Positions 7,666 to 20,612 of a stretch of 64,000 bases of DNA are shown one piece after another. Made by a program: the position numbers and the translations under genes. The notes under the pieces are model-generated. The model was given only the letters and a program-made list of their open reading frames with translations, was not told where the DNA came from and ran no database searches. Numbering within the stretch: position 1 is the first letter of the stretch; every line of letters starts with the position of its first letter. Source of the DNA: Candidatus Omnitrophota bacterium. Lineage in GTDB: Bacteria; Hinthialibacterota; Hinthialibacteria; Hinthialibacterales; JAKPRU01. The stretch is from assembly GCA_029570205.1 (NCBI GenBank), contig JAKQSI010000042.1:52936-116935 (forward strand), in the 5' to 3' direction.

Positions 7666-8775
7666 TCATCCGACAGGCGTTTCTCGAGGAAGATCTTTCT
7701 TTCGAATGTGTTCGTCCCAATACTGGATCCATTCGGCTCGATCCCGACGAACGACATTCCAGTCGATGGGCATTTTGCGGAGCATGTCCCTGACATCCAC
7801 GCCTCTCAGCCACTCCGGAAGCCGGTCTCCAAGGTCATCCCGCGTGGGAATCCGGTAATAGCCGTTTTTCGGATCGGCCAGATAGAGCTGCATATCGGCG
7901 CTCGTGACGAACTCGACAAACTCTTTGCCGGTCTCCAGGTGGGAACAGCCGCGAATCAGGGCCACCCCCTCGGTCAGGACCGGTGTCCCGCTTTCCGGGA
8001 TGACATAGCCGAGATTGTAATTATACCGATGTCGCTGCACGACCACATCCGGCAGGGTCCATATTGTGATGGCTGCCGGGTTGCCTTCGTTCAGTCGCGC
8101 AAATAAATGATCCGTGTTCTCCGTGTGAGCAAGAACATTGGACTCCAGATTCCGCAGCCATTCGTAGCCTGCATCGGGGTTACCGGAGCTGCCGGAGCGG
8201 GCTTGAATCAGCGCGGCAAATATCTGCCCCATAGCCTCGGTAATGACCGGGTCCTGGATCAGAATGCGGCCTTTCCATTTCGGATTCAGCAGGTCCTCCC
8301 AGTCTCGTGGCGCTTCCCAGTCCGGGATGGCGGCCTTGTTGTATACAATGACAGCCGGCAAAACAAAGGTCCCCAGCCAATAGTAATCCGGGTCACGCAG
8401 GTCCAGGCTGAGATGAGCGGCAACTTCCGCTGCCGGGCATGGGTCCAGCAGGCCATCTGCTTTTGCTTCCATGAACATCAAAGAGGATCCGCCCCACCAG
8501 ACATCACATCGCGGCTGGACTCGTTCTTCCTCGATTTGCCGGAGAATCGCGTGGGATGGAATACTGAAAGAGGTCGTCCGTATCCCAATCTCGTCATTTT
8601 GATGCTGCGCCTCAAACCGGTGTGCAATATCCTCCACGATCTCCAGCCCGTGCGGAGAATACACCACCAGATGATGAAACCGCCTCGGCCCCTTCGAGCA
8701 ACCGCACACAACCAGTCCGGTTCCGATCAGAACCGCCATGAACCGTTTCCACGTCCTGTTCGTTTCGGTACACAT
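7666..8775 (-). CDS. ABC-transporter periplasmic substrate-binding lipoprotein (iron(III)/polyamine-type fold)
   Basis: 369 aa with lipobox LVVCGCS. The pattern LVVYSP......DVWWGG....F, ..AVIVYNK and W.DLLNPKWKGRI is typical of Fbp/PotD-like solute-binding proteins. No permease or ATPase is adjacent. Confidence 0.75.
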   Translation of the reverse strand: MCTETNRTWKRFMAVLIGTGLVVCGCSKGPRRFHHLVVYSPHGLEIVEDIAHRFEAQHQNDEIGIRTTSFSIPSHAILRQIEEERVQPRCDVWWGGSSLMFMEAKADGLLDPCPAAEVAAHLSLDLRDPDYYWLGTFVLPAVIVYNKAAIPDWEAPRDWEDLLNPKWKGRILIQDPVITEAMGQIFAALIQARSGSSGNPDAGYEWLRNLESNVLAHTENTDHLFARLNEGNPAAITIWTLPDVVVQRHRYNYNLGYVIPESGTPVLTEGVALIRGCSHLETGKEFVEFVTSADMQLYLADPKNGYYRIPTRDDLGDRLPEWLRGVDVRDMLRKMPIDWNVVRRDRAEWIQYWDEHIRKKDLPRETPVG

Positions 8776-8871: not shown

Positions 8872-10281
8872 ATGGCGGACAGGATGCAAGGCGGAATAAT
8901 GGACGAGACAATTACAGGTTCGGTGCTGGTTGTAGATGACGAAGCTGGAATGCGTCACATCCTCAACAAGCTGCTTTCCGGGAAAGGATATAGCGTGTTC
9001 ACGGCGGAATCCGCTCACGAGGCGCTGGAACTGGCCCGCAAAGACCACCCGGATATCGCGTTTCTGGATATCCGCATCCCGGACATGAACGGTCTGGAAC
9101 TGCTGACCGCGCTCAAAAGCCAGGACCCCGACCTTGTGGTGATTATGATGACGGCGTTCGGCACGGTAGAGACGGCAGTGCAGGCAATCAAGTCCGGCGC
9201 GTATGAATACATCACCAAACCGTTCGAGAACGACAAGATACTGGTAATGGCGGCTAATGCCGTCGAACGTCGGCGACTGATCGACCGGACCCGTCGTCTG
9301 ACCGAGGAGGTGCAGGATCGCCGGGCGTTCGAGGGATTGATCGGCCGCAGCAAATCCATGCAGGAATTGTACGCGCTGATTAAGCGGGTAGCGGCAACCG
9401 AAAGCACGGTGCTGATTATGGGAGAGAGCGGTACCGGCAAAGAAGTTGTAGCCCGCGCCATTCATGCGCAATCGCCCCGCGCAGACAAACGTTTTGTGCC
9501 GGTGAATTGCGGGGCGCTGCCGCGCGACCTGATCGAGAGCGAACTGTTCGGGCATGAGAAGGGAGCCTTTTCGGGCGCTCACCAGCGCCGGATCGGCCTG
9601 GTGGAGGCGGCGGATCGGGGAACTCTGTTTTTGGATGAGATTGCCGACCTGCCCGCGGATCTCCAGGTGAAAATCCTTCGCGTAATTGAGCAAAAGGAGA
9701 TCCGCCGTGTGGGAAGTGTAACCGATATCAAAGTGGATGTGCGCCTTCTCTCCGCCACCAATCGCGACCTGGAGGCAGATGTGAAAAGCGGGAGATTCCG
9801 GGAAGACCTCTATTACCGACTTTCGATCGTGCCGATCCGTATCCCGCCGCTGCGGGAAAGAACAGAAGATATTCCGCTGTTGGCACAACATTTCATCGAG
9901 CAATTCAACAAGAAAATGAACCGTTCCGTATGCGGAACCACTCCGGCGGCGATGCGCTTGCTACGGGAGTATCCGTGGCCCGGCAATGTCCGCGAATTGG
10001 AAAACACAATTGAGCGTGCCCTCGTTCTTCGAGACCAGGGAGAAATCTGCGAGGAGGACCTGCCCATCCAGCTCCGCCGACAGCCCCCGGAGGCTGTCAA
10101 CGATACCTATTTGCTCGATCAGAGCGAGCTGACATTCCAGCAGGCGCGAGAAGCGTTTGAACGGTCCTACCTGGAATCCCTGCTCAAAGCCAACGACAAC
10201 AACGTCACCCGTTCCGCAATGCTGGCGGGGCTGTCGCGGCGGCGGTTGCAGGAATTGATTAAGAAGTATGGGTTGAAGTAA
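8872..10281 (+). CDS. Sigma-54-dependent response regulator (NtrC family: REC + AAA+ + Fis-type HTH)
   Basis: 469 aa with a receiver domain (VLVVDDE...DIAFLDIRIPDMNG), Walker A GESGTGKEV, the sigma-54 contact loop ELFGHEKGAFSGA, and a C-terminal HTH (NVTRSAMLAGLSRRRLQELIKKYGL). The start could be a downstream Met (8899). Confidence 0.92.
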   Translation: MADRMQGGIMDETITGSVLVVDDEAGMRHILNKLLSGKGYSVFTAESAHEALELARKDHPDIAFLDIRIPDMNGLELLTALKSQDPDLVVIMMTAFGTVETAVQAIKSGAYEYITKPFENDKILVMAANAVERRRLIDRTRRLTEEVQDRRAFEGLIGRSKSMQELYALIKRVAATESTVLIMGESGTGKEVVARAIHAQSPRADKRFVPVNCGALPRDLIESELFGHEKGAFSGAHQRRIGLVEAADRGTLFLDEIADLPADLQVKILRVIEQKEIRRVGSVTDIKVDVRLLSATNRDLEADVKSGRFREDLYYRLSIVPIRIPPLRERTEDIPLLAQHFIEQFNKKMNRSVCGTTPAAMRLLREYPWPGNVRELENTIERALVLRDQGEICEEDLPIQLRRQPPEAVNDTYLLDQSELTFQQAREAFERSYLESLLKANDNNVTRSAMLAGLSRRRLQELIKKYGLK

Positions 10282-10288
10282 ATATGTC

Positions 10289-10310
10289 GGGGCGACGCAT
10301 GCGTCACCCC
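10289..10310. repeat. GC-rich palindromic hairpin between convergent genes
   Basis: GGGGCGACGC/GCGTCACCCC centred on CATG, with one mismatch. It sits between the stops of the NtrC-like gene and the methyltransferase gene. No U-tract follows, so I do not call it a terminator. Confidence 0.5.
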
Positions 10311-10349
10311 TACACCCATCCCCGCGAGCCATCCGATACCGGATAGCGT

Positions 10350-11144
10350 TCATTCGTTTTTACGGATTTCGATCCAGATACCGTAATTGATACCGTCCGA
10401 TCCTTCAGGGCGCGGAATAATGATGGTGTAGGTCTCGATAGCCAAATCCCGCATGATCGTCTCCAATTCCTCGCGGGCTTCCTCGATTGAGTAATTGGGA
10501 AATCCTTTACCTATCTTATTGCCTGTGTCTTCGCCTTTTTTCTTTCTTTCCGCCTGGCTCTTGATCTGGCTCTCGCGAATTTCCCTCGCAATCTCCACAG
10601 GAAGATTTTCGGAAAATCCCCGACCGATATAGGCTACGCCACCCGGTTTCAAAATACGCCAAACCTCCGCGAATCCCGCCTTTTTATCGTCCCAGAAGGG
10701 ATACGACCCGCGCGAGACAGCAATATCCACATAACTATCGCGCAGGGCCATCCATTGCGCATCAGAAAAAATCGCGCTCACCTGGCCCCCAATCCCGGCT
10801 TCCTGCGCTTTCCGAAAGAAATCGGGGAAAACGGACGGATTGATATCGAGGTTGATCCAGTGCATTTTTGGCGAACGCTTACAGAGCTCGATCACTAAGG
10901 ATCCCGACCCGCCTCCGATATCCACACCGATTCCCGATTTGTCTGCGAGGTTGTAATGGGCCACAAGCCATTCCGCCAACGGAGCATAGACCGGCGCCAG
11001 TCGAGAGGGTCCTGTATTGCGAGGTTTTTCCGTGGTCTCCTTCTTGAATTTCTCCGGATTCGGAACTTTTAATATGTCGGCGCCGGCGATGAGACAAAAA
11101 ATCAGTGCGCAAAGAATTGTTGCGGATATTGCGGATTTTCTCAT
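10350..11144 (-). CDS. Class I SAM-dependent methyltransferase with an N-terminal signal peptide or signal anchor
   Basis: 264 aa. The N-terminus is MRKSAISATILCALIFCLIAGA (hydrophobic, positive N-end). Motif I is GVDIGGGSGSL, post-I is an acidic residue (INLDIN), and there is a LKPGG motif. Confidence 0.85.
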   Translation of the reverse strand: MRKSAISATILCALIFCLIAGADILKVPNPEKFKKETTEKPRNTGPSRLAPVYAPLAEWLVAHYNLADKSGIGVDIGGGSGSLVIELCKRSPKMHWINLDINPSVFPDFFRKAQEAGIGGQVSAIFSDAQWMALRDSYVDIAVSRGSYPFWDDKKAGFAEVWRILKPGGVAYIGRGFSENLPVEIAREIRESQIKSQAERKKKGEDTGNKIGKGFPNYSIEEAREELETIMRDLAIETYTIIIPRPEGSDGINYGIWIEIRKNE

Positions 11145-11195
11145 ACGATGATCCTTTCGTATTGCTGGTGTTGTTCGTATTTCCTGTTGCCTGGG

Positions 11196-11343
11196 AAACC
11201 CTCACCCAGCCCTCCCGGGGGGAGAGGGAGCGGCCTTCGCTTTTCTGACAGGCAGTGACGCCTGTCCTGCCAACCCCACCCCGGCCCTCCCTGTAAACGC
11301 GGAGGGAGACACTTCCCCCTGTTTACGGGGAGATTGAGGGGGG
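11196..11343. repeat. Composite repeat block: family B unit, family C unit, family A copy 2
   Basis: 11196-11230 aaaccctcacccagccctcccggggggagagggag is family B. 11246-11270 gacaggcagtgacgcctgtcctgcc is family C (compare 54246-54270). 11272-11343 matches 315-417 (family A) but lacks the middle unit. Confidence 0.8.
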
Positions 11344-11372
11344 TATGAATGCATATACGTCCGGAATCCCCC

Positions 11373-14300
11373 TCACTTCCCCGCGCGAATGGGATGATAC
11401 CGGATGGGATTGCCGTCACGGTCCGTAATTCGAGCGCTGAAACACCACAGACCGCCTGTCTGAGTAATCTTCATGAGAATGGTGTTGATCCCTTTCTTGC
11501 CATGGACCGGCAGGGCATCCTGGTCCGGCTCACAGCCCCGCTCCCCATCATACTCTCCGGCAACCTCACCGTTCCACCAGCATCGGAAGCCATCATTGCT
11601 GCCGACTTTCACATACAAATCCTGGTCGTTCTCCAGGGGAACCTCGGCATACGCATACGCGGACACCCATTCTCCGCCGCCACAGATGCCGACCAGATCC
11701 ACTATGGGCGCATCGCCGACAAATCGCTCCCAGTGTCGTGTGCCCTCGTCCGTGTCATAGGAGAGGCTGACATCTACCGCCGGTTCTCCCACAAAGGCTT
11801 TATCCAGCGGATACTCACCGCCAAAGGGGAACGGCCCGGCCAGAAGCCAGCGTGTAACATACCCCTTTTCCGCCGCATCCTTGCCGACCTCAAAGCCGAA
11901 GTTGTCCAATTTGCTCAAGATGTCTTGTGTCAGGGAACGGGTTGGAGAGATCACACGCGCACGGTTCAGCATTCCGATCGCCTTGGCGGGGTCGGATTTT
12001 CCAATATCATCCGCAACGGCGACATAAACCCGAAGCGCCTGCTCGACAATATCCGAATCCGGCTCACGGTAATTCCACAGCACCGGCGACAAATCCCCGC
12101 AGTACGGCTTGATGATCGATAGAGATTGGGGGGATTTTATCTGGGCCATTTTCTGTAGTGCAGAGACTAGAACAGATTTGGGCCAGGCCGTTGAGGCGGC
12201 AGCATGGTAAAAAACCAACGCGCGATCCCTGTCACCCTGCTCCAACGCTGCATCGGCTAGGGTAATCCATTCCGCAGGTTGTTTCTCTTTCGCAAAATCG
12301 GGTAAGGCTTCGGATGCGCTCTTGGGAACGTCTTCCCGAACCGCTTTCACAAAATTGAGCAGCGGGGCCTGTTCTTTTGTGGGATTCTCCACTTTGGGTA
12401 TCAGTTCGACGGTGAGTGCATTCGAGACCGAAACGCCGGGCAACTCCTTGATGATCGTTTTCTGTTGCCCGGCAGTCTCTTTTGCGGGATCAAAGTTCTC
12501 GGCAACAACCTTTCCCTGGACACGAATATCAAACACACGCTGCCCGATGCGGTCGCTCACCATTGGAATGAATCCGAGCAAAATCGTATACCGGCCCGGT
12601 TCCTCACCCCAGGTATCATCAATGAGCGGAACATCAAACCGCAGCGCACCCAGGCAACCGGATGCGAACAGCCACGGCTTGTCAATGCCTTGGAATCTGT
12701 CCGTGCGGAAGTCCTCGGCAAAATAGCCCATACCGTTGAGAAACTTTTCATTCAGTTTGAACTGCACACCGTACGGGCTTTCGCCGCCGTGACTGGTGTA
12801 CTTTGTGGCAAAGCGGGGATATCCGAACCAGAGGGTCCCGTCATCATCCCGCATGTCGCCCGGCGCGCCGAGATTGATCGCTAACTCCTTGACCGGCGTC
12901 TCAGGACCATGCGCGACAAATACCGTCCAGTCTTTCGGCGTATGGTTTTCCCTGGGCTTGAAAGCCATGGAGCATTTCAGCGGGAACGAACAGGTGCAGC
13001 CGGAACTGGCCTCCGGAAACAGGAGGAGACCATTGGCCGGAATAAGATTGATCCAACATCCGGGGCGAATCGCGCCGAAGAACGAAATGCCCGCATCGTT
13101 GTTCATGTCGTAAAACGCGGCATTGTAAGAGCGATAGAACAGCCCGCTGGGAGCCGCCGAGGTAATGCTGCAACAATGTCCGGGGCGCAGGAACTCCCAC
13201 GGAACTTTCTCGCCGGAAATCGGGTGCGTGCGGGTCTCAATCTCGCCGGTCTCCAGATTACAAGCACGCGGCTCGATAATGACCTTATTGCCGACAAGAA
13301 GAGGCCGACGCAGGTAATTCAGCGGGCGCGACCAACGAACATCCCCCACCGATGCAGACAATGCCGTAATGCGCCGCCATCGCAGCGCACCCTCCTGAAA
13401 TGAGCCTCCGTCATGGTTGCTGAATGTACCGAAGAAAAGCAGCACTCCGTTCTGATATGCGCTTGCAAGCCTGTCTCCCCCGCAGCCGGTGAGATCGACC
13501 GGCTTCTCCCACAGTTTCTTTCCCGTTTTGGCATCGAGCGACACGACCATACGAATGTCCGCCTCCCCGGGCAACAAAGCGGTTTCTTCGCTCTCTTCGT
13601 ACTTCTTCTCATCAATCAGGCGTTTCCGTTCATTCAACGCCAGGGCCTTTTGTTCACCTGTCACATTCTGATGTGCCAGAAACACTTTTCCATCCGCGAT
13701 CACCGGGACAATGTTCGCAAACTTGCCTTCTTTGAAAGTCCATAAAACATCCCCGGTTTTCGCATCAAGCGCAAAGAAACACTCAGAGAGCATGATCCGG
13801 TCGGTCAGAGCGGCTTTCGGCGATTTCTGACTCCCCCAGGCCGGATAGGTGTTCATCTGATGCCACAGTGCGCCGGCACGATGCAGGTCCTGCCAGGCAT
13901 CCCGGTTCGGTTCGGGATATCGCTGCTTGAACGTGTCAAGATATTCCGTATATCGCGAATCCTTTTGTGTTTCGGGAGTCTGCGGAGTTTCTTTCCATTT
14001 TTCGCCGTCCGTCAGATTGTCCCATGTTGATGCGTAGTCGGCTTCCAGCGGATCGGCGACGGAGCCGAACAGGATTTTCCCATCCGAGGAGATATATCCC
14101 CATCGTTTGCGGCCCGAATCGGCGGGTATCGGGAGGGGATAGATATGAACGGTTTCGCCGGTTTCGGGGTCGAGGCGGTGGCATTTGTCGTGCGCGGCGA
14201 CATACAGGGCATCGTCCGTAACAACCAGGTTTCCACCGTCCACATCGACACGGACCCGCACAGCGCCGGGGATTTCCCGCTTCCACAGGAAGGTTCCGTT

Positions 14301-16556
14301 ATAGGCATCGTACGCGCTGATTTCCTCTTCGCCCTGTATAAACAGGCGTCCATCGATGGAGACAGGGGCCATGGAACGCGCGTGACGTTCCACCATACCA
14401 CTCGGTCCCGGTTCGCCGAACCAGAGGACACCCAGCGGGCATTCGACCAGCTGGTCATCGGAACATGCGGTGTTCTGAGAATTGCCGTACAGCTCGCGCC
14501 AGGAACCGGCTTTCTCAAGCGGCTTGCGCTTTCCACACAGAGTGCAGATACCGGCGCCCTTTTCCGCAATCATCATGGATATATCGCCAATTGACGCGCT
14601 GGAATCCTGGAATTCCTGCATCTTTGATTCCTGAGCGATAGGCGAACGAAAAAAGATGGCTCCCCCGTCGGGACGAAGAACGCGGGATATCTCTCTGGCA
14701 TTCAATTCTGCTTCCCCACTTGTTACGGTGGAATCATAGACAATCAGATTGGCGAAATAATCCGGCAAGTCCCGAATATCCCAGTTCTCGACGATTATCT
14801 TTGTTCCGTAGAGAGCCGCGCCATCGAGTTTCGCTTTGGCGTTTTGGACGTTTTGTGGATCGGAGTCGATGGCAATCACAAACATCTCGGATTGCCGCGC
14901 GATCTCATAAGCCAAGTGCCCGTCCCCGCACCCCAGAACGAGGCAATAGCCTTTACGGACGGAGGACTGCGTGAAGACATCCTTCGCAAAAGACTGGTAG
15001 TCCTTTGAGAGCCTGTCCCCCTTGTACGGAGTCTCTTCGATTTTCGCCGTGCGCTTGCCGGGATTCTTGGGAGCGCCTTCGGTGAAACAGGAAACCGAGC
15101 CGTCATTCGAGCTGACAAGGAGTTTTCCATCGGAGACTGCCAATCCGGCAACCTCACCGGAGACACTGCCTTTCCATACCTCTTTGCCGTTCGTGATATC
15201 CAGCGCGATCAGCGATTCCTTGCCGCCGAGAATTAAGGTCTGTCCGGCCAAGGCCATCACATTGAAATTCTTTGCGGGGGCAAACCAGCGGCAGGCGGCC
15301 GATTTCAACTGCCCCTGCTCTTGCTGAATGGCTTTCATTCTCGAAGAGATTTGGGCGATTTCTTCATTTACGGAGTCTTTGGTTGCCTGATCCGCCTGCG
15401 CCAGCTTCGCCCGCAGATCGGCAATCCGTCGTCGGATGTTGGCTTCTTCCGACGCCAGCTCCTGCAAGCGCTTGTTGATTTCGGGGTATTTCACCCGGTC
15501 GATTGCGTAAACACCCTCCGGTGTAAGAACAAACGAGTTCTCCGGAGTAACTACAAGATCAACGCCTGGGAACCACGCGTATGGTTCGCCGAGTCGTTGT
15601 CCGGTTCCATCCTCGTAGGAAACTTTGGCCGGAGTGCCGGAAAGATCAACGCCGGCAATTAACTCATTCCGATCCAGCAGCACCCACGTGCCGCCGACCT
15701 TGCCGCCCGGATTGAGATAGAAAAGAAACTCGCCATTTCTCCGACTGAATCCGGCAGGCATGGCACGGCTCGAAGGCACATAAAGGACCTCTTTCGATAC
15801 AACCAGGTATCCCTGGGGCGAGATTCCGCCGAAGTTGAGTTCATGTGCCCGGTCTCCGATGGTGTCGTTTTTCCAAATGACCTCGCCGGTTTCGGCGTTG
15901 AGCGCATAAATCTGAATCCCTTCATAGGGAAACACACCGGCGGCGAAATACGCAATACCGTCATCCACCAGGACATTCGTGCGAACCGGCCAGAGCGAGA
16001 TCATACGGCCGTTCCCCAGAACCTTCCGGTTGCTGGGGCCTGCGCGGAACTTCCAGACAATCTCACCATTCTGCGCGGACAGGCAATAAACATAACCGTC
16101 ATCGGAGCCGACATAAACATTCCCGTTCGAGATAGATGGGGCCAGCCGCACGGGGCCATCGGTGAACCGGGTCCACCGGATCTCGCCGGTTTCCGCATCA
16201 AGCGCGTATACCTTGTTGTCTACCGAGGAACCAAAATACGCGATCCCATCCGCGACAGTAACCTGATAGGCGCTGTCGAAACGCATTCGGGGAAGTTCCT
16301 CCGCCGGTTCGTACCAGGCCGGTTTCGGAGCATGGGGAGTCCGGTATTCCCAGGCGAATGAGAGCGGCGGTTTGATCCCTTGTGAAGTGACGGCATGTTG
16401 GGCGCTGTCGTGACGATAGGTCGGCCAGTTCTCCCCGCAAGCATCATCGGCTGTTATGGCGGAAAACCAGAGACAGACGGCTAAAAAGGCGAAAAACATC
16501 CCCACGGGCTTCATGAGAAAAAATCTGTGGAAATTCATTCTCGGGTCTCCGATCAT
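11373..16556 (-). CDS. Giant exported multidomain protein: PQQ/BamB-type beta-propeller repeats, coiled coil, embedded class I methyltransferase fold, second propeller region, malectin-like module, helical region, C-terminal beta-sandwich-like module
   Basis: 1,727-aa ORF with an N-terminal hydrophobic signal. It has many PQQ-like blades (VYALDAETGEIRW, VYCLSAQNGEIVWKF, IYALNAETGEVIWK, FFALDAKTGDVLWTF, VVSLDAKTGKKLWE). The methyltransferase motif I LVLGCGDGHLA lies at about 14901-14951. The malectin-like signature GRYTILLGF....IGQRVFDIRVQGKVVAENFDP lies at about 12390-12790. Confidence 0.9.
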   Translation of the reverse strand: MIGDPRMNFHRFFLMKPVGMFFAFLAVCLWFSAITADDACGENWPTYRHDSAQHAVTSQGIKPPLSFAWEYRTPHAPKPAWYEPAEELPRMRFDSAYQVTVADGIAYFGSSVDNKVYALDAETGEIRWTRFTDGPVRLAPSISNGNVYVGSDDGYVYCLSAQNGEIVWKFRAGPSNRKVLGNGRMISLWPVRTNVLVDDGIAYFAAGVFPYEGIQIYALNAETGEVIWKNDTIGDRAHELNFGGISPQGYLVVSKEVLYVPSSRAMPAGFSRRNGEFLFYLNPGGKVGGTWVLLDRNELIAGVDLSGTPAKVSYEDGTGQRLGEPYAWFPGVDLVVTPENSFVLTPEGVYAIDRVKYPEINKRLQELASEEANIRRRIADLRAKLAQADQATKDSVNEEIAQISSRMKAIQQEQGQLKSAACRWFAPAKNFNVMALAGQTLILGGKESLIALDITNGKEVWKGSVSGEVAGLAVSDGKLLVSSNDGSVSCFTEGAPKNPGKRTAKIEETPYKGDRLSKDYQSFAKDVFTQSSVRKGYCLVLGCGDGHLAYEIARQSEMFVIAIDSDPQNVQNAKAKLDGAALYGTKIIVENWDIRDLPDYFANLIVYDSTVTSGEAELNAREISRVLRPDGGAIFFRSPIAQESKMQEFQDSSASIGDISMMIAEKGAGICTLCGKRKPLEKAGSWRELYGNSQNTACSDDQLVECPLGVLWFGEPGPSGMVERHARSMAPVSIDGRLFIQGEEEISAYDAYNGTFLWKREIPGAVRVRVDVDGGNLVVTDDALYVAAHDKCHRLDPETGETVHIYPLPIPADSGRKRWGYISSDGKILFGSVADPLEADYASTWDNLTDGEKWKETPQTPETQKDSRYTEYLDTFKQRYPEPNRDAWQDLHRAGALWHQMNTYPAWGSQKSPKAALTDRIMLSECFFALDAKTGDVLWTFKEGKFANIVPVIADGKVFLAHQNVTGEQKALALNERKRLIDEKKYEESEETALLPGEADIRMVVSLDAKTGKKLWEKPVDLTGCGGDRLASAYQNGVLLFFGTFSNHDGGSFQEGALRWRRITALSASVGDVRWSRPLNYLRRPLLVGNKVIIEPRACNLETGEIETRTHPISGEKVPWEFLRPGHCCSITSAAPSGLFYRSYNAAFYDMNNDAGISFFGAIRPGCWINLIPANGLLLFPEASSGCTCSFPLKCSMAFKPRENHTPKDWTVFVAHGPETPVKELAINLGAPGDMRDDDGTLWFGYPRFATKYTSHGGESPYGVQFKLNEKFLNGMGYFAEDFRTDRFQGIDKPWLFASGCLGALRFDVPLIDDTWGEEPGRYTILLGFIPMVSDRIGQRVFDIRVQGKVVAENFDPAKETAGQQKTIIKELPGVSVSNALTVELIPKVENPTKEQAPLLNFVKAVREDVPKSASEALPDFAKEKQPAEWITLADAALEQGDRDRALVFYHAAASTAWPKSVLVSALQKMAQIKSPQSLSIIKPYCGDLSPVLWNYREPDSDIVEQALRVYVAVADDIGKSDPAKAIGMLNRARVISPTRSLTQDILSKLDNFGFEVGKDAAEKGYVTRWLLAGPFPFGGEYPLDKAFVGEPAVDVSLSYDTDEGTRHWERFVGDAPIVDLVGICGGGEWVSAYAYAEVPLENDQDLYVKVGSNDGFRCWWNGEVAGEYDGERGCEPDQDALPVHGKKGINTILMKITQTGGLWCFSARITDRDGNPIRYHPIRAGK

Positions 16557-17228
16557 CTATGTTGAGGATGGGTTTTCGACGATTTCACCTCCCCGCAGAA
16601 AGACAATTTGATTCGCATACTGGTCCGCCGAATGCCCGTGGGTCACCACAATCACCGTGCCCCCTTCCCGTTGGAACTCGTGCAGGTGGCGAATCACCTC
16701 CTCGGCGTTTTCGGGATCGAGATTGCCGGTGGGTTCATCGGCCAGAAGGATGGAGGGCCGATTCATCAGCGCGCGGGCAATTGCAGTGCGCTGTTTTTCG
16801 CCTGCGCTCAGTTCGGCAGGCTTATGAAACTCGCGGTGAGAAAGTCCCAGATTCTTGAGTAATTCCCGTGCCCGTTCACTGGACTCTGCATTCCGCTCGA
16901 ACCCCGATGCCAGAAGGACATTCTCCAGCACGTTCAAATAGGGAATCAGGTGAAACATCTGGAAGACAAATCCGATATTCTTTGCCCGGAACTGCGCCCG
17001 TTCCAGTTCATTCATTGCGGAGATTTCCTGGTTGTTCACGGTGACTCGTCCGGTTGTGGGACGCATCATTCCACCGATGGTCAACAGCAACGTGCTCTTG
17101 CCACTTCCGCTCGGCCCGCGAACAACAAGAAATTCCCCTTGCCGAACATGCAGATTGATATTGTGAATGGCGCGGACCTCGTTTCGGCCCACTCGGAAAG
17201 TTTTACTTACATTTTCGAGAAGAACCAT
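16557..17228 (-). CDS. ABC transporter ATP-binding protein (MacB/LolD/FtsE-like)
   Basis: 223 aa with Walker [10 protein letters not shown], signature LSAGEKQR, Walker [13 protein letters not shown] and an H-loop VTHG. Its stop codon abuts the start codon of the giant gene. Confidence 0.93.
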
Positions 17229-17230
17229 GA

Positions 17231-18385
17231 TTATTCCTCCCTCAGCGTAACAGCGGGATCCTCCGTAACCGCGACAACCGCCGGAATGAAACTGGACAGC
17301 GCCGTAAATGTCGGCGCAACCAGCAGCGACCAGGTGAGCAGTGAGTAAATCGGACGAATCGACTTCGCGGTTACTTTGAAAACTTGCGGCCCGAAACTCA
17401 TCGCAAAAGCGGTCCCCAGAAAGAATCCGATGGCCGCTCCGATCAGCCCGATGATGATGGCCTTGCCCAGGAACAGCGCAGCGATTCGGAAAGAACCATA
17501 TCCCAGCGCGCGCAAAACCCCGATTTCAAACCGGCGTTCCCGCACATTCAGGAACGCCAACGCGCCGATCCAGATTGCGCAGCCGACCAACACAAGGGGC
17601 AACAACCGCGCGAAAAACCGCTCAAGCATAAACCGCTGCTCCCGACGCGCATCGGAAATCGCTTTGAGTTGGATCACCTTGCCCTCCGGCAGCACTTGTT
17701 CCAGCTGAGATCGTAACCGATCCAGAGGATCACCGGGTTCCTTGCACAGGCATTCCAGCGCTTGGATCTCATTGATCCGGCCATCGAGGTTCAGAATACT
17801 CTGTATATCTTTCAGGTGACCGTAGATTCGGATGTCGTCATCGCTGCCCGTTTCCGGCAGACAGGAGGCTACCTGGAACGGCTTACCGAAAAGATCCACC
17901 ATATCGCCATTCTTCACCCCCGTTTTTTGTACCAGTTCGTATCCGAGATACACTTTGCCCGGTTCCACCGCAAACGGAATCATGGAGGATTCCACCACCC
18001 CTTTCGGTACGACTTCCTTTGCGGCAATACCGGTCAGAAGAACCTCCATTCCCTGCCAGGTGACTTTTTGCTGAAGAGTCGCCAGCAGATGTCGATACTG
18101 AATCTCGTCCTGTGTCTTCTCAGCAAACCGAAGGACATAATCCTCCGGCATGGTGTAATCGGAAAATCCGGTCTCCCAGAACTTAATCATGTCCGTTTCT
18201 TTCGGAATGATGCGCAGGTTATAGCCGATGTCGCGCATCAGGCGTGTGGTCTCGCGCTGAGAATCCTGCGCGCTCGTGAAAAAGGCGACATACACCGCCA
18301 CCGCAGTAACTACTGCCAGCAGGCTGAGAACAAAGTTATATTCCCGGTGAGTGATTTCTTTGAGAATCAGCAGTAGCGTTGACAT
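17231..18385 (-). CDS. ABC transporter permease, FtsX/MacB family
   Basis: 384 aa with TM1, a roughly 220-aa extracytoplasmic domain, then three TMs containing the FtsX-type RRFEIGVLRALG motif. There are 2 nt between its stop and the ATPase start. Confidence 0.88.
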   Translation of the reverse strand: MSTLLLILKEITHREYNFVLSLLAVVTAVAVYVAFFTSAQDSQRETTRLMRDIGYNLRIIPKETDMIKFWETGFSDYTMPEDYVLRFAEKTQDEIQYRHLLATLQQKVTWQGMEVLLTGIAAKEVVPKGVVESSMIPFAVEPGKVYLGYELVQKTGVKNGDMVDLFGKPFQVASCLPETGSDDDIRIYGHLKDIQSILNLDGRINEIQALECLCKEPGDPLDRLRSQLEQVLPEGKVIQLKAISDARREQRFMLERFFARLLPLVLVGCAIWIGALAFLNVRERRFEIGVLRALGYGSFRIAALFLGKAIIIGLIGAAIGFFLGTAFAMSFGPQVFKVTAKSIRPIYSLLTWSLLVAPTFTALSSFIPAVVAVTEDPAVTLREE

Positions 18386-18432
18386 GATACCCTTTCCCTG
18401 AAATCACCCATAAACTGGGTGACTGATCTGTT

Positions 18433-19662
18433 TCATTTTGATCCAAGTCCTCTTCGAACAGCGATCACAATCCCCACCAGAATAACAACCCCAAATCCGG
18501 CGATTGTCCAGAGGACTGTTCGAGTATAGAGGTCAGGTTTCCGTTCCTCGGAAGATGGAGGATCGATTGCCCGCGACGGAACAGGCTGCTCGACAACCGG
18601 CGCAGACTCGGCTCCGAACTCCACAACCTGCTCGCTGTATCCGAACAGAGGATCCGTGTTCGGATTCTCGGAAGATATTCCCACCGTCTCCCCGGACAGG
18701 CCGGAAGCCAGTATCTGGCCGATCTCCATTTTCACCATCGGGTTCTCCGCATCAAAACCGGCCGATTCGATCACTTGCGATCGCATGGTGGAATCCCAAC
18801 GGAGAGGCACAGGCATCCCCATAATCAGGCTCCGGTCCAGGCCGCATTCGCACGATGCGCCAACCAGCCCAAGCAACGAAAAAAGGCGGCTTTCAACAAT
18901 CTCGTCTCGGTGCAAAACCGGCCCCATCCTGCGCCCTCTTCCGTACAGCGCCACGACATGAGGATCGTTTAATGCTTCCTCATCGAGATTCATACCCCAC
19001 AACAACACTTGCTCATTCGGAAATGATTTTGGAGAAATCCGAACCAGGTAAGGATTCACCTCCACAGGTTTCGGCAATTGGTCTGCCAATCCGGTGATCC
19101 GCTCGATAGCACGTTGAATGTGCTGCAAGGCCCGCTGATTCGCTTCCGCATCTTGTCCCTCGATCAGAAGAACAACGCAGTATGATTTCACGAGATGCTC
19201 CAGGATGTCCCGGCGGACCGGAGAATCACAGGCCTGCTCGAGGGATGTCATTAAAGAGTCCGATGTTTCGGCAATGGGGAGCAACAGGGACCTTCCATCC
19301 GGCGCAACAAGAACACAGGCGGGAGATTGGAGATTCTGCCCTGAGGGAAAATATCGGAGCGCGGGATGATCCGGCTCGCTGTCCGTGCGGACAATCTCAG
19401 GCTGGATATTGGAGTCCATCAGGGCAACCAGCGCGGCCCTGTCGAACGCCTCGATTCGAGCCGGGGGAGTTTGGTCCCCGACGAAGCAATAGAGATGGTA
19501 CAAATCGCCCGGGAACTGAACAAACCCGACATCGCGAACCGTATATCGGCAGGCATGGGCGTGCGAAACGAAGAAGAGCAGCACAAAGAAAACTGCCGGG
19601 AAAAACGCAGATGTCTTGGGAATCATACATAACATTATCCGAAGGAGTGTGGCGAGGGTCAA
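18433..19662 (-). CDS. Hypothetical envelope protein with a signal peptide and a C-terminal transmembrane anchor
   Basis: 409 aa. The N-terminal hydrophobic segment ends SHAHA-C and is followed by CRYTVRDVGFV. The C-terminal TM is VLWTIAGFGVVILVGIVIAV, followed by RRG. I recognise no family. Confidence 0.7.
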   Translation of the reverse strand: MTLATLLRIMLCMIPKTSAFFPAVFFVLLFFVSHAHACRYTVRDVGFVQFPGDLYHLYCFVGDQTPPARIEAFDRAALVALMDSNIQPEIVRTDSEPDHPALRYFPSGQNLQSPACVLVAPDGRSLLLPIAETSDSLMTSLEQACDSPVRRDILEHLVKSYCVVLLIEGQDAEANQRALQHIQRAIERITGLADQLPKPVEVNPYLVRISPKSFPNEQVLLWGMNLDEEALNDPHVVALYGRGRRMGPVLHRDEIVESRLFSLLGLVGASCECGLDRSLIMGMPVPLRWDSTMRSQVIESAGFDAENPMVKMEIGQILASGLSGETVGISSENPNTDPLFGYSEQVVEFGAESAPVVEQPVPSRAIDPPSSEERKPDLYTRTVLWTIAGFGVVILVGIVIAVRRGLGSK

Positions 19663-19675
19663 GGAAGAGGAACCA

Positions 19676-20489
19676 ATTGACTCATATTAAAGCTTACCGA
19701 AGGGAGAGAGAAAAGAGGATCGTTGACTCATAATTGAGGATACCGAGAAACGAGGTGTCGGAAATTATGAGTGGCATGTTGAGAAAAGAATATTTAAGAG
19801 AGATATGCGGGTGGACGGAGAATCGAGCGACGTGGAATCGGGGCGCGCGAGGCGTTCTGACTCAGATTCAGGACATGGAAACCTCCCTGGTGTTTCCGAT
19901 TCTGGGGTTTGATTGCGACAACGGTTCCGAGTTTCTGAATTATCATCTGTTCCGGTATTGGACCGGTCGGAACTCCCCGGTCTCGTTTACACGCGGTCGT
20001 CCGTATCATACCAATGACAGTGCGCACGTCGAGCAAAAGAATTGGACCCATGTTCGCCAATTATTGGGCTATGATCGGTTCAGTAATCCGGATTTAGTGG
20101 AACCGATCAACGGTCTCTACGCCCACGAGTGGAGCCAATTCCAGAATTTCTTTTGTCCCACCTTGAAACTCGAAAGCAAGGAACGGATCCACTCCAAAAT
20201 ACGGCGCCGGTACGGGAAACCACAGACACCCGCCGAACGTCTGCTGGAGTGTCCGGATGTGACCTGTGAGGCCAAACAGCGTCTTCGGGACACCCTGCGT
20301 TCCCTGAATCCGTTCCAGCTTCGGGAAGCCATTGAACGGAAACTCAAAATGATTTTCAATCTTCGTGAGGAAACGAAATATGGGTCAGCGATTTGCTCTG
20401 AACGGGTGTTTAACTCCAGTCGGCCTACGGCCTCCTTCCGTTAAACACCCGTTCACTTACCCCTTCGGTAAGCTTTTCCCATGAGTCAA
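19676..20489 (+). mobile_element. Internally deleted insertion-sequence remnant bounded by imperfect terminal inverted repeats
   Basis: The left end TTGACTCATATTAAAGCTTACCGAAGGG (19676-19703) is the inverted match of the right end CCCTTCGGTAAGCTTTTCCCATGAGTCAA (20461-20489). Between them lies only the C-terminal part of an rve-type transposase. Confidence 0.65.
19734..20444 (+). pseudogene. Truncated DDE (rve/integrase-core) transposase, N-terminal part missing
   Basis: The 236-aa ORF begins at TTG right after an in-frame TAA. It contains FDCDNGSEF and RGRPYHTNDSAHVEQKNWTHVR (second D and E region of a DDE core), but no first catalytic D region and no HTH domain. Confidence 0.7.
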
Positions 20490-20550
20490 CGCGGTACAGA
20501 AATGTAAACTATAGTGTACAGAATAATGTGCAGAATAGCAACCCACGCAT

Positions 20551-20584
20551 AAAAAAACGGGAGACCGAGCGGTCTCCCGTTTTC
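20551..20584. terminator. Bidirectional rho-independent terminator (serves trpB2 on the minus strand)
   Basis: Perfect 9-bp stem CGGGAGACC (20558-20566) / GGTCTCCCG (20571-20579) with loop GAGC, flanked by AAAAAAA upstream and TTTT downstream. Confidence 0.8.
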
Positions 20585-20612
20585 CTTCAAGAGATCAATC
20601 CTGTATGGCCGA

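What the first reader, a model, noticed from the sequence alone, without database searches (positions are those of the whole stretch)
11373..16556. Unusual domain mosaic in one exported 1,727-aa protein
The translation shows, in order: a signal or anchor segment; a first set of PQQ/BamB-type blades; a roughly 60-aa coiled coil (about 15303-15480); more blades; a class I methyltransferase fold; a second large propeller region with Cys-rich stretches (CCSITS, GCTCSFPLKC); a malectin-like carbohydrate-binding signature (GRYTILLGF...GQRVFDIRVQGKVVAENFDP, about 12390-12790); a helical region; and a C-terminal beta-sandwich-like module beginning WLLAGPFPF (about 11373-11880). Carbohydrate-binding plus propeller modules suggest a glycan- or envelope-directed scaffold. 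I know of no characterised protein with this combination.
Basis: partly seen in the sequence, partly recalled or inferred. Interest (0 to 1): 0.65.

Follow-up and report, generated by a model that had tools for sequence, protein, structure and literature searches.

The report
Exported propeller–methyltransferase–lectin protein with ABC partner
The 1,727-codon gene is real and encodes an exported multi-domain protein of a large but unnamed and unstudied bacterial family, which usually sits in an operon with an energy-transmitting ABC membrane complex and a second unknown lipoprotein, so it looks like an undescribed cell-envelope machine aimed at sugars.

Summary
The order is: Sec signal peptide, PQQ/BamB-type propeller 1 carrying a 66-aa antiparallel helical hairpin, a class I methyltransferase (MT) fold, propeller 2 with invariant Cys and His, a malectin domain, a TPR-like helical region, and a C-terminal beta-sandwich that folds like PA14.

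The ORF is not a chimera. Two independent sequencing runs each cover it with one contig at flat depth, and metatranscriptomes contain pieces of it.

The mosaic is not rare. The propeller 2 plus malectin segment finds 1,280 protein clusters at E<=1e-30, and 238 loci in species genomes across about ten phyla, the best 80 of them all MAGs. None has a name beyond 'PQQ-binding-like beta-propeller repeat protein', and I found no paper on it.

New here:
- The gene follows an FtsX/MacB-type permease, an ABC ATPase and an unnamed lipoprotein-like gene, and this arrangement recurs in distant relatives.
- All three extracytoplasmic partners carry an invariant CxC motif.
- The embedded MT fold and a neighbouring 264-aa MT are both exported yet keep their SAM-binding motifs.

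Best reading, confidence 0.4: a glycan-directed periplasmic or surface effector driven by a type VII ABC mechanotransducer. The chemistry is unknown.

The parts
18433..19662 (-). 'up409': unnamed partner protein. It has a signal peptide ending in a lipobox-like [VAL][FL][GA]|C and an invariant Cys38 followed by conserved C-x-Y-x-V-R-D-x-G-F. It also has an invariant SCECGLD motif (C271-x-C273), a C-terminal TM helix and a basic tail. The true start is probably an internal ATG (MIPKTS...).
   Evidence: There was no Pfam or NCBIfam hit even at E 10 and no PDB hit with a profile. The homolog search found 295 proteins, all 'hypothetical protein'. A homolog lies beside the giant gene in 33 of 83 loci.
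17231..18385 (-). FtsX/MacB/LolC-type permease (type VII ABC). TM1 is followed by a ~210-aa periplasmic domain and then TM2-4. The periplasmic domain carries C212-x-C214, invariant in 26/26 sequences.
   Evidence: Pfam FtsX scores 51.3 bits and MacB_PCD 21.4 bits. NCBIfam lolCE, LolE, MacB and FtsX models all score far below their cutoffs. Orthologs in other loci are 52-57% identical.
16557..17228 (-). ABC ATPase of the LolD/FtsE/MacB-NBD type. Its stop codon abuts the giant ORF.
   Evidence: Pfam ABC_tran E 6.8e-36. LolD scores 211.8 bits (cutoff 307.75) and FtsE 200.8 bits (cutoff 264.85).
11373..16556 (-). The giant ORF: 1727 codons, probably starting at Met7 (16538) to give 1,721 aa.
   Evidence: Contiguity and transcription are shown.
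16440..16538 (-). Sec-type signal peptide, aa 7-39. The mature protein starts just before the conserved W-P-T-Y-R-H-D.
15048..16427 (-). Propeller 1: PQQ_2/BamB-like fold of about eight blades, aa 44-503, interrupted by the hairpin.
   Evidence: Pfam. Foldseek to BamB gives TMt 0.66-0.74.
15294..15491 (-). Antiparallel two-helix hairpin, aa 356-421, projecting from propeller 1. Its length is tightly conserved while its sequence is poorly conserved.
   Evidence: The model has helices at 337-366 and 371-402, which is +19 in ORF numbering. The insert is 69-70 aa in 81 of 120 homologs. Column identity is about 0.38.
14520..15014 (-). Class I (Rossmann) methyltransferase fold, aa 515-679, with motif I G542-x-G544-x-G546 and an acidic residue at 564.
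   Evidence: Pfam. A profile of this domain matches PDB 3dlc at E 1.2e-16.
12912..14510 (-). Propeller 2, aa 683-1215, the most conserved part of the protein. It holds many invariant Arg, His, Asp, Asn and Cys residues: R724, H725, N753, D773, D1000, H1048, D1049, R1062, E1095, R1124, H1127, C1129, R1142, S1143, D1154, C1167.
   Evidence: Pfam PQQ_2 gives E 2.6e-15. The PDB profile search gave only weak hits to tetrathionate hydrolase and PQQ dehydrogenases.
12990..12998 (-). Invariant C1187-T-C1189 within P-E-A-S-S-G-C-T-C-S-F-P, in a loop that AlphaFold2 models with pLDDT below 50.
   Evidence: 120/120. One search lists the low-confidence segment 1167-1171 in model numbering. The motif is kept in malectin-less paralogs.
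12336..12887 (-). Malectin-like (CBM57-like) beta-sandwich, aa 1224-1407.
   Evidence: Pfam Malectin scores 45.7 bits. The model is and the Foldseek matches.
11868..12299 (-). TPR-like all-helical repeat, aa 1420-1563. It is present in about 74% of the 120 closest homologs.
   Evidence: TPR_14, 24.4 bits. Its presence correlates with up409/FtsX adjacency.
11421..11852 (-). PA14-like beta-sandwich, aa 1569-1712. It is present in about 37% of the 120 closest homologs.
   Evidence: The model is. Foldseek matches PA14 domains with probability 1.00 and TMt 0.45-0.49. The window copy has no Pfam PA14 hit. P0082 and P0089 have Pfam PA14 at this position.
10350..11144 (-). Stand-alone 264-aa class I methyltransferase with its own signal peptide, of the same subfamily as the embedded MT domain. 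It is a facultative neighbour, with homologs beside the giant gene in 8 other loci.

Best explanation
The giant protein is the extracytoplasmic working subunit of a four-gene envelope module: a lipoprotein-like 'up409' protein, an FtsX/MacB-type permease, an ABC ATPase and the giant protein itself.

Shown:
- It is Sec-exported, and about 30% of homologs look like lipoproteins.
- It is transcribed.
- It is conserved as a unit with the ABC genes.

Inferred:
- The permease and ATPase form a type VII ABC complex. Such complexes do not carry a substrate across the membrane. They pass ATP-driven movements to their periplasmic domains, as FtsEX does to EnvC, PcsB, RipC or CwlO.
- The length-conserved helical hairpin on propeller 1 is the most likely docking lever. 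The TPR-like region is a second candidate contact, because its presence tracks with the ABC genes.
- The malectin and PA14-like modules (NPCBM or Laminin_G_3 in relatives) hold the protein on a glycan, either the cell's own envelope polysaccharide or an external one.
- The chemistry is done by the highly conserved propeller 2 centre, rich in Arg, His and Asp and carrying a mobile CxC loop. The embedded SAM-binding-type methyltransferase fold may take part.
- The invariant CxC motifs in all three extracytoplasmic partners suggest that a thiol-based step, either disulfide exchange or hand-over of a thiophilic ligand, is part of the cycle.
For: Operon:
- The ABC stop codon lies 0-18 nt from the giant's start, and FtsX and ABC are 2 nt apart.
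- FtsX plus ABC precede the gene on the same strand in all four homolog loci first examined, at 43-49% identity.
- Across 83 loci, up409 is adjacent in 33, FtsX in 28 and ABC in 26.
- Among loci with at least 4.5 kb of upstream sequence, 15 of 18 proteins with the helical extension have up409 and/or FtsX nearby, against 10 of 37 core-only proteins. Fisher p = 1e-4.
- The link is reciprocal. Three up409 homologs picked independently each sit beside a PQQ plus MT protein, and two also have FtsX plus ABC.
- The FtsX orthologs are 52-57% identical, at least as conserved as the giant itself.

Partner features:
- The permease has the type VII topology.
- The hairpin is antiparallel and is 69-70 aa long in 81 of 120 homologs.
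- Precedent: EnvC binds two FtsX periplasmic domains through an antiparallel coiled coil, and type VII ABC proteins work by mechanotransmission (PMC7668044, read).
- Search listing (paper not read): a paper titled 'SweC and SweD are essential co-factors of the FtsEX-CwlO cell wall hydrolase complex in Bacillus subtilis' (PMC6705773), which suggests membrane co-factors of FtsEX as a precedent for up409.

Glycan targeting: malectin is universal, and PA14, NPCBM and Laminin_G_3 were recruited independently.

CxC motifs: giant 120/120, FtsX 26/26, up409 30/30.

Expression and contiguity.
Against: - No physical interaction was tested, and no multimer model could be run.
- Adjacency is not universal. 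27 of 37 core-only genes with enough flank have no ABC or up409 gene within 7 kb. Yet all members keep the hairpin, so the hairpin cannot be explained by the ABC partner alone.
- In P0100 an NPCBM domain sits at the hairpin position. This suggests the site may be a display arm rather than a docking lever.
- The permease fails every curated FtsX, LolCE and MacB model cutoff, so transfer of mechanism is by superfamily only.
- An exported SAM-dependent enzyme has no known SAM supply in the periplasm, so the MT fold may be non-catalytic.
- No catalytic activity can be assigned to propeller 2. Its conserved Cys/His region matches nothing solved.
Confidence: 0.4

Rival explanations
1. It is a stand-alone secreted or periplasmic carbohydrate-active enzyme. 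Propeller 2 would be a polysaccharide lyase or hydrolase for an anionic glycan. The malectin, PA14 and NPCBM modules would serve as CBMs. The ABC genes would be neighbours with a separate or only loosely related role.
For: - Several independent carbohydrate-binding modules occur in the family.
- Propeller 2 has many invariant Arg, His, Asp and Asn residues, as in beta-propeller lyases (the comparison is from general knowledge, not tested).
- Sulfatase genes lie nearby in 10 loci and GFO_IDH_MocA genes in 9. GH43, GH123 and BNR genes occur in individual loci.
- The host phyla are known glycan degraders.
- Most core-only members lack an adjacent ABC system.
Against: - There was no sequence or fold match to any CAZy-type propeller. 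The top matches were BamB, tetrathionate hydrolase and PQQ dehydrogenases.
- This reading does not explain the embedded MT fold, the hairpin, the CxC motifs shared with FtsX and up409, or the reciprocal linkage with up409.
- Malectin-less paralogs keep the same core and the same partners.
Confidence: 0.2
2. The ABC system is a dedicated Lol-like sorter. It would extract up409 and the giant protein, many of whose homologs are lipoproteins, from the inner membrane for delivery to the outer membrane or cell surface. The giant protein would be cargo rather than a regulated partner.
For: - The best NCBIfam hits are LolD (211.8 bits) and lolCE.
- up409 has a lipobox-like signal in essentially all members.
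- 31 of 107 giant homologs have lipobox-like signals.
Against: - The window protein and most homologs have SPase I-type signals, not lipoboxes.
- The Lol models score far below their cutoffs.
- up409 also has a C-terminal TM anchor. The residues right after its Cys are invariant, which is atypical for a lipoprotein tether.
- The invariant CxC in the FtsX periplasmic domain is not explained.
Confidence: 0.12
3. It is a periplasmic thiol, metal or metalloid and oxyanion processing machine. The three CxC motifs would relay a thiophilic species, for example an S, Se, As, Mo or W compound, to the propeller 2 centre. The exported MT folds would methylate that species. The process would be linked to a ModABC-like importer.
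For: - All three extracytoplasmic partners carry an invariant CxC.
- A ModABC-like importer is adjacent in 6 distinct loci: L001, L017, L041, L044, L086 and L087. It has 1-3 SBP_bac_11 proteins and a ModB-like permease scoring 204-206 bits against TIGR01581. L086 also has a TauE gene.
- Both propellers give their best non-BamB PDB sequence hits to tetrathionate hydrolase.
- The stand-alone MT gives weak ArsM-type hits.
- The hosts are mostly from anoxic sludge and sediment.
Against: - The window itself has no Mod-like importer. Its nearby SBP is PhnS/FbpA-like.
- The association covers only about 6 of 35 module-bearing loci.
- Conserved Cys residues in exported proteins are most often structural disulfides.
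- This reading does not explain the universal malectin domain.
- The periplasmic SAM supply problem remains.
Confidence: 0.1
4. It is a PQQ-dependent quinoprotein dehydrogenase, or a BamB-type outer-membrane-protein assembly factor, as the database names imply.
For: - Pfam PQQ_2 and PQQ hits.
- Foldseek to BamB gives TMt up to 0.74.
- Source names are 'BamB' or 'PQQ-binding-like'.
Against: - TIGR03075 (PQQ alcohol dehydrogenase) scores 62.9 bits against a cutoff of 480.
- BamB TIGR03300 scores 90.1 against 285.2, and NF008351 scores 77.8 against 423.
- The hits reflect the shared blade repeat only.
- BamB is a ~390-aa single-propeller lipoprotein, whereas this protein is 1,721 aa with five additional domain types.
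Confidence: 0.03
5. The long ORF is an assembly chimera or a fused gene call.
For: None was found.
Against: - In each of two independent activated-sludge runs, one Logan contig covers window 10000-19704 with 0 differences at flat depth (11.6 and 10.9) and no joints.
- More than 100 homologs at 43-54% identity are collinear over 80-100% of the length.
- A 91%-identical copy lies in an Omnitrophota MAG.
Confidence: 0.01

Closest known systems
FtsEX with its coiled-coil partners (EnvC in E. coli; PcsB, CwlO and RipC in Gram-positives and mycobacteria): type VII ABC mechanotransmission systems
   Same: - An FtsX-type permease with four TM helices and a large periplasmic domain between TM1 and TM2.
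- A LolD/FtsE-like ATPase.
- An exported partner encoded in the same operon that carries an antiparallel helical hairpin.
- An extra membrane-anchored accessory protein (up409), possibly comparable to SweC/SweD, which I know only from a paper title in the search listing (PMC7668044 read; PMC6705773 from the listing, not read).
   Different: - The permease scores only 16.4 bits on the FtsX model (cutoff 255), and its periplasmic domain has an invariant CxC.
- The partner has no LytM, CHAP or NlpC/P60 domain. It has two propellers, an MT fold and lectin modules instead.
- The hairpin is about 66 aa, much shorter than the EnvC coiled coil.
- No link to cell division genes is seen.
- No interaction has been shown.
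LolCDE and MacAB (other type VII ABC systems)
   Same: The best-scoring curated models for the ATPase (LolD, 211.8 bits) and the permease (lolCE, 40.4 bits), and a MacB_PCD-like periplasmic domain.
   Different: - All scores are far below the curated cutoffs.
- There is a single permease gene.
- There is no MacA-type adaptor and no TolC gene.
- up409 has no known relative.
BamB, PQQ quinoprotein dehydrogenases and tetrathionate hydrolase (PQQ_2-type eight-bladed propellers)
   Same: The blade repeat and the overall propeller fold of both propellers.
   Different: - Far below family cutoffs.
- The conserved Cys/His/Arg region of propeller 2 (aa 1085-1195) aligns to nothing solved.
- The multi-domain context is different.
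Malectin / CBM57 and PA14 carbohydrate-binding modules
   Same: - The malectin Pfam hit is above its cutoff.
- The fold matches human malectin, the plant ANX/FER malectin-like ectodomains and a bacterial GH2 accessory domain.
- The C-terminal module matches PA14 domains of the MpIBP adhesin, yeast beta-glucosidase and Cea1A.
   Different: - The ligand is unknown and sugar-binding residues were not checked.
- The window's C-terminal module does not reach Pfam PA14, so the match is by fold only. Some homologs do reach it.
PDB 3dlc, a putative SAM-dependent methyltransferase of Methanococcus maripaludis (uncharacterised)
   Same: This is the closest solved relative of the embedded MT domain (profile E 1.2e-16). 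The match includes the N-terminal helix motif (L)xPxY...AE.I, which the neighbouring exported 264-aa MT shares.
   Different: - 3dlc is a small stand-alone protein, and from general knowledge I presume it to be cytoplasmic.
- Here the fold is embedded between two propellers of an exported protein.
- The substrate is unknown in both.

Membership tests
PQQ-dependent alcohol/glucose dehydrogenase (quinoprotein) | Full-length match to the curated family model (TIGR03075 / TIGR03074) | tested here: not met
   TIGR03075 scores 62.9 bits against a cutoff of 480. TIGR03074 scores 19.9 against 832.65.
PQQ-dependent alcohol/glucose dehydrogenase (quinoprotein) | PQQ- and Ca/Ln-binding active-site residues | not tested
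The vicinal C1128-C1129 of the window protein is not conserved: position 1128 is T, S or C.
BamB (outer membrane protein assembly factor) | Match to the BamB equivalog models; a ~390-aa single-propeller lipoprotein | tested here: not met
   TIGR03300 scores 90.1 against 285.2. NF008351 scores 77.8 against 423. The protein is 1,721 aa with an SPase I-type signal. The fold of propeller 1 does resemble BamB, with TMt up to 0.74.
Malectin domain (PF11721 / CBM57-like) | Pfam model above gathering score, and the malectin beta-sandwich fold | tested here: met
   45.7 bits against a cutoff of 23. Foldseek gives human malectin 9ikp TMt 0.64 and ANX1/2 and FER at E 4e-8 to 6e-7.
Malectin domain (PF11721 / CBM57-like) | Carbohydrate binding | not testable with these tools
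   Needs a glycan array or ITC.
PA14 domain (PF07691) | Pfam model above gathering score | tested here: not met
   The window protein has no PA14 hit, either whole or as the isolated segment at E<=10. Homologs P0082 and P0089 score 59.4 and 53.2 bits at the same position.
PA14 domain (PF07691) | PA14 beta-sandwich fold | tested here: inconclusive
   Foldseek probability is 1.00 but TM is modest: 6m8m TMt 0.45, 6x8a/6x8d 0.47-0.49 and 5a3l 0.42.
Class I SAM-dependent methyltransferase | Pfam class I MT models above gathering score, and a seven-stranded Rossmann-like fold | tested here: met
   Methyltransf_25 scores 35.0 (cutoff 27), Methyltransf_31 29.6 (27) and Methyltransf_11 29.3 (21.2). The profile matches 3dlc at E 1.2e-16.
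Class I SAM-dependent methyltransferase | SAM-binding motifs: glycine-rich motif I and an acidic residue at the end of beta-2 | tested here: met
   The window has G542-C-G544-D-G546. Across the family G546 is 118/120, G544 is 93/120 and position 542 is D or G. Position 564 is E or D in 106/120. R-V-L-[RK]-P-x-G-G is conserved.
Class I SAM-dependent methyltransferase | SAM binding and methyl transfer | not testable with these tools
   The protein is Sec-exported, and no periplasmic SAM source is known. Activity is therefore doubtful until assayed.
Type VII ABC system (FtsEX / MacB / LolCDE superfamily), for the two upstream genes | FtsX-type permease with four TM helices and a large extracytoplasmic domain between TM1 and TM2, plus a cognate ABC ATPase | tested here: met
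   Pfam FtsX scores 51.3 bits (cutoff 25.5) and ABC_tran gives E 6.8e-36. The hydropathy map puts TM1 at ~15-40, a loop at 41-252 and TM2-4 at 253-375.
Type VII ABC system (FtsEX / MacB / LolCDE superfamily), for the two upstream genes | Membership of a named subfamily (FtsX, LolC/E, MacB) | tested here: not met
   FtsX_Gneg scores 16.4 against 255, lolCE 40.4 against 362.45 and MacB 17.2 against 966. For the ATPase, LolD scores 211.8 against 307.75 and FtsE 200.8 against 264.85.
FtsEX-EnvC-type regulated periplasmic partner | The partner carries an antiparallel coiled coil | tested here: met
   AlphaFold2 predicts a hairpin of two ~30-residue helices, with length conserved across the family. 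This is a prediction only.
FtsEX-EnvC-type regulated periplasmic partner | The coiled coil binds the FtsX periplasmic domains, and ATPase activity controls the partner | not testable with these tools
   No multimer prediction or experiment was available.

The most novel reading that the evidence does not exclude
This is an undescribed ATP-powered extracytoplasmic enzyme system. A type VII ABC mechanotransducer and a novel lipoprotein would drive, through a relay of CxC motifs, a glycan-anchored two-propeller enzyme. That enzyme would carry a functional SAM-dependent methyltransferase outside the cytoplasm. It would be the first bacterial periplasmic or surface methylation machine, acting on envelope or environmental glycans, or on thiophilic sulfur or metalloid species linked to the ModABC-like importers seen in some loci.
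Probability: 0.1. Interest if true: 0.85.

Novelty: new variant of a known kind. Interest (0 to 1): 0.6.

Why it matters
- Scale of the gap. A family with more than a thousand 50%-identity clusters is spread over PVC, FCB and Acidobacteriota lineages that dominate sludge and anoxic sediments. It has no name, no Pfam family for its partner protein and no literature.
- New output for a known machine. If the operon logic holds, it extends the type VII ABC 'mechanotransmission' principle, known from cell division (FtsEX), lipoprotein sorting (Lol) and efflux (MacB), to a new kind of output: a lectin-decorated propeller enzyme.
- Methylation outside the cytoplasm. The intact SAM-binding motifs in two Sec-exported methyltransferase folds raise a concrete, testable question about methyl transfer, or SAM sensing, outside the bacterial cytoplasm.
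- Annotation. The current 'BamB' and 'PQQ-binding' labels on these genes are misleading.

Tried and rejected
- Assembly chimera: rejected.
- Tat export or an Fe-S reading of the Cys cluster: rejected. The N-termini are Sec or lipoprotein signals with no twin arginine.
- PQQ dehydrogenase or BamB membership: rejected on curated cutoffs.
- Sequence and profile searches of PDB for propeller 2 gave only generic PQQ-propeller hits. The same search for up409 gave nothing.
- Foldseek of the 1,196-residue model was dominated by BamB and tetrathionate hydrolase and gave nothing specific for propeller 2.
- Literature searches for the domain combination and for periplasmic or exported bacterial methyltransferases found nothing relevant.
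- A sigma-54 promoter upstream of the operon, prompted by the neighbouring sigma-54 response regulator, was not found above chance.
- No Rfam element lies in 9000-21000.
- The window's own nearby SBP gene (7666-8775) is PhnS/FbpA-like, not the ModA-like type seen in other loci. It was not counted as part of the system.
- A full-length single-HSP extraction of the MT domain from loci failed, with only 4 loci usable. Alignment-derived segments were used instead.

Full report
**The observation**

The ORF 11373..16556 on the minus strand is present and uninterrupted: 1727 codons starting at ATG. GC content across it is even, at 0.52-0.60. The stop codon (TAG) of the upstream ABC ATPase gene is followed directly by this ATG. 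A second ATG 18 nt downstream (Met7, 16538) has GGAG 8 nt upstream and matches the 1,721-aa database gene call P0001, so it is probably the true start.

**Domain content**

Pfam gives four kinds of hit (TPR figure):
- PQQ_2, E 4.5e-40, six stretches.
- Malectin, aa 1260-1379, 45.7 bits against a cutoff of 23.
- Three class I methyltransferase models above cutoff, aa 539-654.
- A TPR_14 hit in the helical region, 24.4 bits on the isolated segment.

Two AlphaFold2 models built on family alignments are confident. The model of aa 20-1215 has pLDDT 85.4 and pTM 0.86. The model of aa 1200-1727 has pLDDT 89.4 and pTM 0.85. Together they give this order:
1. Signal peptide.
2. Propeller 1.
3. An antiparallel two-helix hairpin, aa 356-421.
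4. The remaining blades of propeller 1.
5. A Rossmann methyltransferase fold, aa 515-679.
6. Propeller 2, aa ~683-1215, with two helical inserts.
7. A beta-sandwich, aa 1224-1407.
8. A helical repeat, aa 1420-1563.
9. A second beta-sandwich, aa 1569-1712.

Foldseek assigns the first sandwich to malectin or malectin-like domains and the last to PA14. The window's C-terminal module does not reach Pfam PA14, but homologs P0082 and P0089 do at the same position.

**Not a chimera, and expressed**

The sequence comes from activated sludge. In each of two independent DNA runs, a single Logan contig covers window 10000-19704 with no differences, flat depth (11.6 and 10.9) and no joints. Two metatranscriptomes contain 100%-matching contigs scattered over the giant ORF, the ABC genes, the upstream gene and the downstream methyltransferase.

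**How common it is**

The 120 best database hits all share the architecture at 43-54% identity. They fall into three length classes, which the alignment explains:
- The core, aa 1-1405, is present in all.
- The helical region is present in about 74%.
- The PA14-like module is present in about 37%.

An exhaustive search with propeller 2 plus malectin finds 5,116 50%-identity clusters at E<=1e-3 and 1,280 at E<=1e-30.

A scan of one genome per species found 238 loci. The closest is a Candidatus Omnitrophota MAG at 91% identity. The rest, at 44-52%, come from Phycisphaerae, Sedimentisphaerales, Pirellulales, Planctomycetales, Aminicenantes and other Acidobacteriota, KSB1, Poribacteria, Latescibacterota, Calditrichota, Bacteroidales and Verrucomicrobiales. 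The best 80 are all MAGs.

The only names attached are 'PQQ-binding-like beta-propeller repeat protein' or 'BamB family'. The curated BamB and PQQ-dehydrogenase models are missed by wide margins. Literature searches found nothing on the combination. The mosaic is thus common but uncharacterised.

**Export**

All 107 homologs with complete N-termini have a hydrophobic Sec-type segment ending just before the conserved W-P-T-Y-R-H-D. Thirty-one have a lipobox-like motif, and none has a twin-arginine motif.

**Conservation pattern**

Propeller 2 is the most conserved part of the protein. It has a dense set of invariant Arg, His, Asp and Asn residues and four invariant cysteines: C1129, C1167, C1187 and C1189. 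H1127 is nearly invariant. The invariant P-E-A-S-S-G-C-T-C-S-F-P motif lies in a loop that AlphaFold2 models with pLDDT below 50. A profile of propeller 2 finds only weak PDB matches to tetrathionate hydrolase and PQQ dehydrogenases, and the Cys/His region matches nothing.

The methyltransferase fold keeps the hallmarks of SAM binding. G546 is present in 118/120 sequences, G544 in 93/120, position 542 is D or G, and position 564 is E or D in 106/120. The R-V-L-[RK]-P-x-G-G motif is conserved. Its closest solved relative is the uncharacterised 3dlc, at E 1.2e-16.

The hairpin has low sequence conservation but a tightly conserved length: 69-70 residues between the flanking anchors in 81 of 120 sequences.

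**Genomic context, the main new clue**

In the window the giant gene is the fourth gene of a same-strand run:
- An unnamed 409-codon gene, 'up409' (18433-19662).
- An FtsX-type permease (17231-18385).
- An ABC ATPase (16557-17228).
- The giant gene, with gaps of 47, 2 and 0-18 nt between successive genes.

A 264-aa class I methyltransferase lies 228 nt downstream (10350-11144).

FtsX plus ABC directly precede the gene in all four distinct homolog loci first examined. Across 83 loci, the recurrent neighbours are up409 in 33, FtsX in 28, ABC in 26, sulfatase in 10, GFO_IDH_MocA in 9 and the small methyltransferase in 8.

Among loci with at least 4.5 kb of upstream sequence, 15 of 18 genes that encode the helical extension have up409 and/or FtsX nearby, against 10 of 37 core-only genes. 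Fisher p = 1e-4.

The link is reciprocal. Three up409 homologs chosen only for lying on long contigs each sit next to a PQQ plus MT protein, and two also have FtsX plus ABC. Those partners have the same core without malectin, or the core split into two genes, and they keep the G-C-[TH]-C motif.

The FtsX orthologs are 52-57% identical.

**The partners**

The permease has the type VII ABC topology: TM1, a ~210-residue periplasmic domain, then TM2-4. It scores far below the FtsX, LolC/E and MacB cutoffs. Its periplasmic domain has an invariant C212-x-C214 in 26 of 26 sequences.

up409 has no Pfam, NCBIfam or PDB relative. The homolog search found 295 proteins, all annotated as hypothetical. Its features are:
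- A signal peptide ending in a lipobox-like motif.
- An invariant first cysteine followed by conserved C-x-Y-x-V-R-D-x-G-F.
- An invariant S-C-E-C-G-L-D.
- A C-terminal TM anchor.

All three extracytoplasmic components therefore carry an invariant CxC.

The 264-aa methyltransferase and its homologs also have signal peptides or lipoboxes, and they share the L-A-P-V-Y...A-E motif with 3dlc and the embedded domain.

**Interpretation**

Type VII ABC proteins use cytoplasmic ATP hydrolysis to move their periplasmic domains. In FtsEX, two periplasmic domains grip the antiparallel coiled coil of EnvC (PMC7668044). A paper titled 'SweC and SweD are essential co-factors of the FtsEX-CwlO cell wall hydrolase complex in Bacillus subtilis' (PMC6705773) appeared in the listing; I did not read it, but its title suggests that FtsEX-CwlO also needs membrane co-factors.

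By analogy, I propose that the giant protein is the regulated extracytoplasmic partner of this ABC complex. The proposal has four parts:
- The hairpin, and possibly the TPR-like region, act as contact elements.
- up409 acts as a co-factor.
- The lectin modules fix the protein to a glycan.
- Propeller 2, perhaps with the MT fold, acts as the working centre.

The operon linkage is shown. The interaction and the chemistry are inferred. Confidence in the general statement is 0.4.

**Evidence against**

- Most core-only paralogs lack an adjacent ABC system yet keep the hairpin.
- One member carries an NPCBM domain at the hairpin site.
- An exported SAM enzyme has no known cofactor supply.

**Rivals**

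- A stand-alone glycan-active enzyme, confidence 0.2.
- A dedicated Lol-like sorter for which the giant protein is cargo, 0.12.
- A thiol, metalloid or oxyanion processing machine, 0.1. This is prompted by the three CxC motifs and by ModABC-like importers adjacent in six loci.
- The database labels, quinoprotein dehydrogenase or BamB, 0.03.
- Assembly chimera, 0.01.

**Verdict**

The glycan-directed scaffold interpretation is partly supported and is extended by the operon context. The claim of an unusual mosaic must be softened to a common but unnamed and unstudied family. I rate it a new variant of a known kind, a type VII ABC system with an unprecedented partner. Interest is 0.6.

Noticed in passing
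L001 13242-16761; L017 3-3392; L041 11104-14559; L044 12009-16288; L086 2963-8874; L087 5810-8839: A ModABC-like oxyanion importer lies directly beside the up409/FtsX/ABC/giant module in six distinct loci. It has 1-3 tandem SBP_bac_11 proteins, a ModB-like permease scoring 204-206 bits on TIGR01581, and an ABC ATPase that carries TOBE_2 in L086. L086 also has a TauE gene. The ModB-like permeases are 72-82% identical to L001's in four of the loci, more conserved than the giant protein. The window has no such importer.
   Followed up: partly
window 11145-11372 (especially 11212-11309): The intergenic region between the giant gene and the 264-aa methyltransferase holds GC-rich, REP-like inverted repeats (cccctc...gagggg, gggagggc...). 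Short high-depth contigs and loose ends in both DNA runs show that a ~30-nt piece (11272-11309) is repeated elsewhere in the metagenome.
   Followed up: partly
window 18433-19662 (up409), residues 38-47: The invariant Cys sits exactly at the predicted signal-peptide cut. It is followed by nearly invariant residues (C-x-Y-x-V-R-D-x-G-F), unlike the variable tether of ordinary lipoproteins. The N-terminal Cys may therefore be functional, as a nucleophile, a ligand or a disulfide partner of C271/C273, rather than only a lipid anchor.
   Followed up: partly
window 10350-11144: The stand-alone class I methyltransferase has a Sec signal peptide. Its homologs next to giant genes in other loci have signal peptides or lipoboxes. 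This is a second exported SAM-MT fold in the same neighbourhood.
   Followed up: partly
P0100 residues 383-517 (homolog, Planctomycetota): An NPCBM/NEW2 carbohydrate-binding domain (E 1.3e-38) is inserted at the position of the helical hairpin. This member also lacks a Pfam methyltransferase hit.
   Followed up: no
L087 12515-16832; L005 12383-19059: There are natural gene fission and permutation variants. L087 splits the core into a 475-aa propeller 1 plus hairpin gene and a 956-aa Laminin_G_3 plus MT plus propeller 2 gene. L005 has two tandem MT-first paralogs with a W-A-C-D-C motif in place of G-C-T-C.
   Followed up: partly
window 8872-10281 (+): A sigma-54-dependent response regulator lies convergent to the operon's downstream end. 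No sigma-54 promoter consensus above chance was found upstream of the operon or elsewhere in the window.
   Followed up: partly
window 16538-16556: The longest ORF starts at an ATG abutting the ABC stop codon. The second ATG (Met7) has the better ribosome-binding site (GGAG 8 nt upstream) and matches the public gene call of 1,721 aa.
   Followed up: yes
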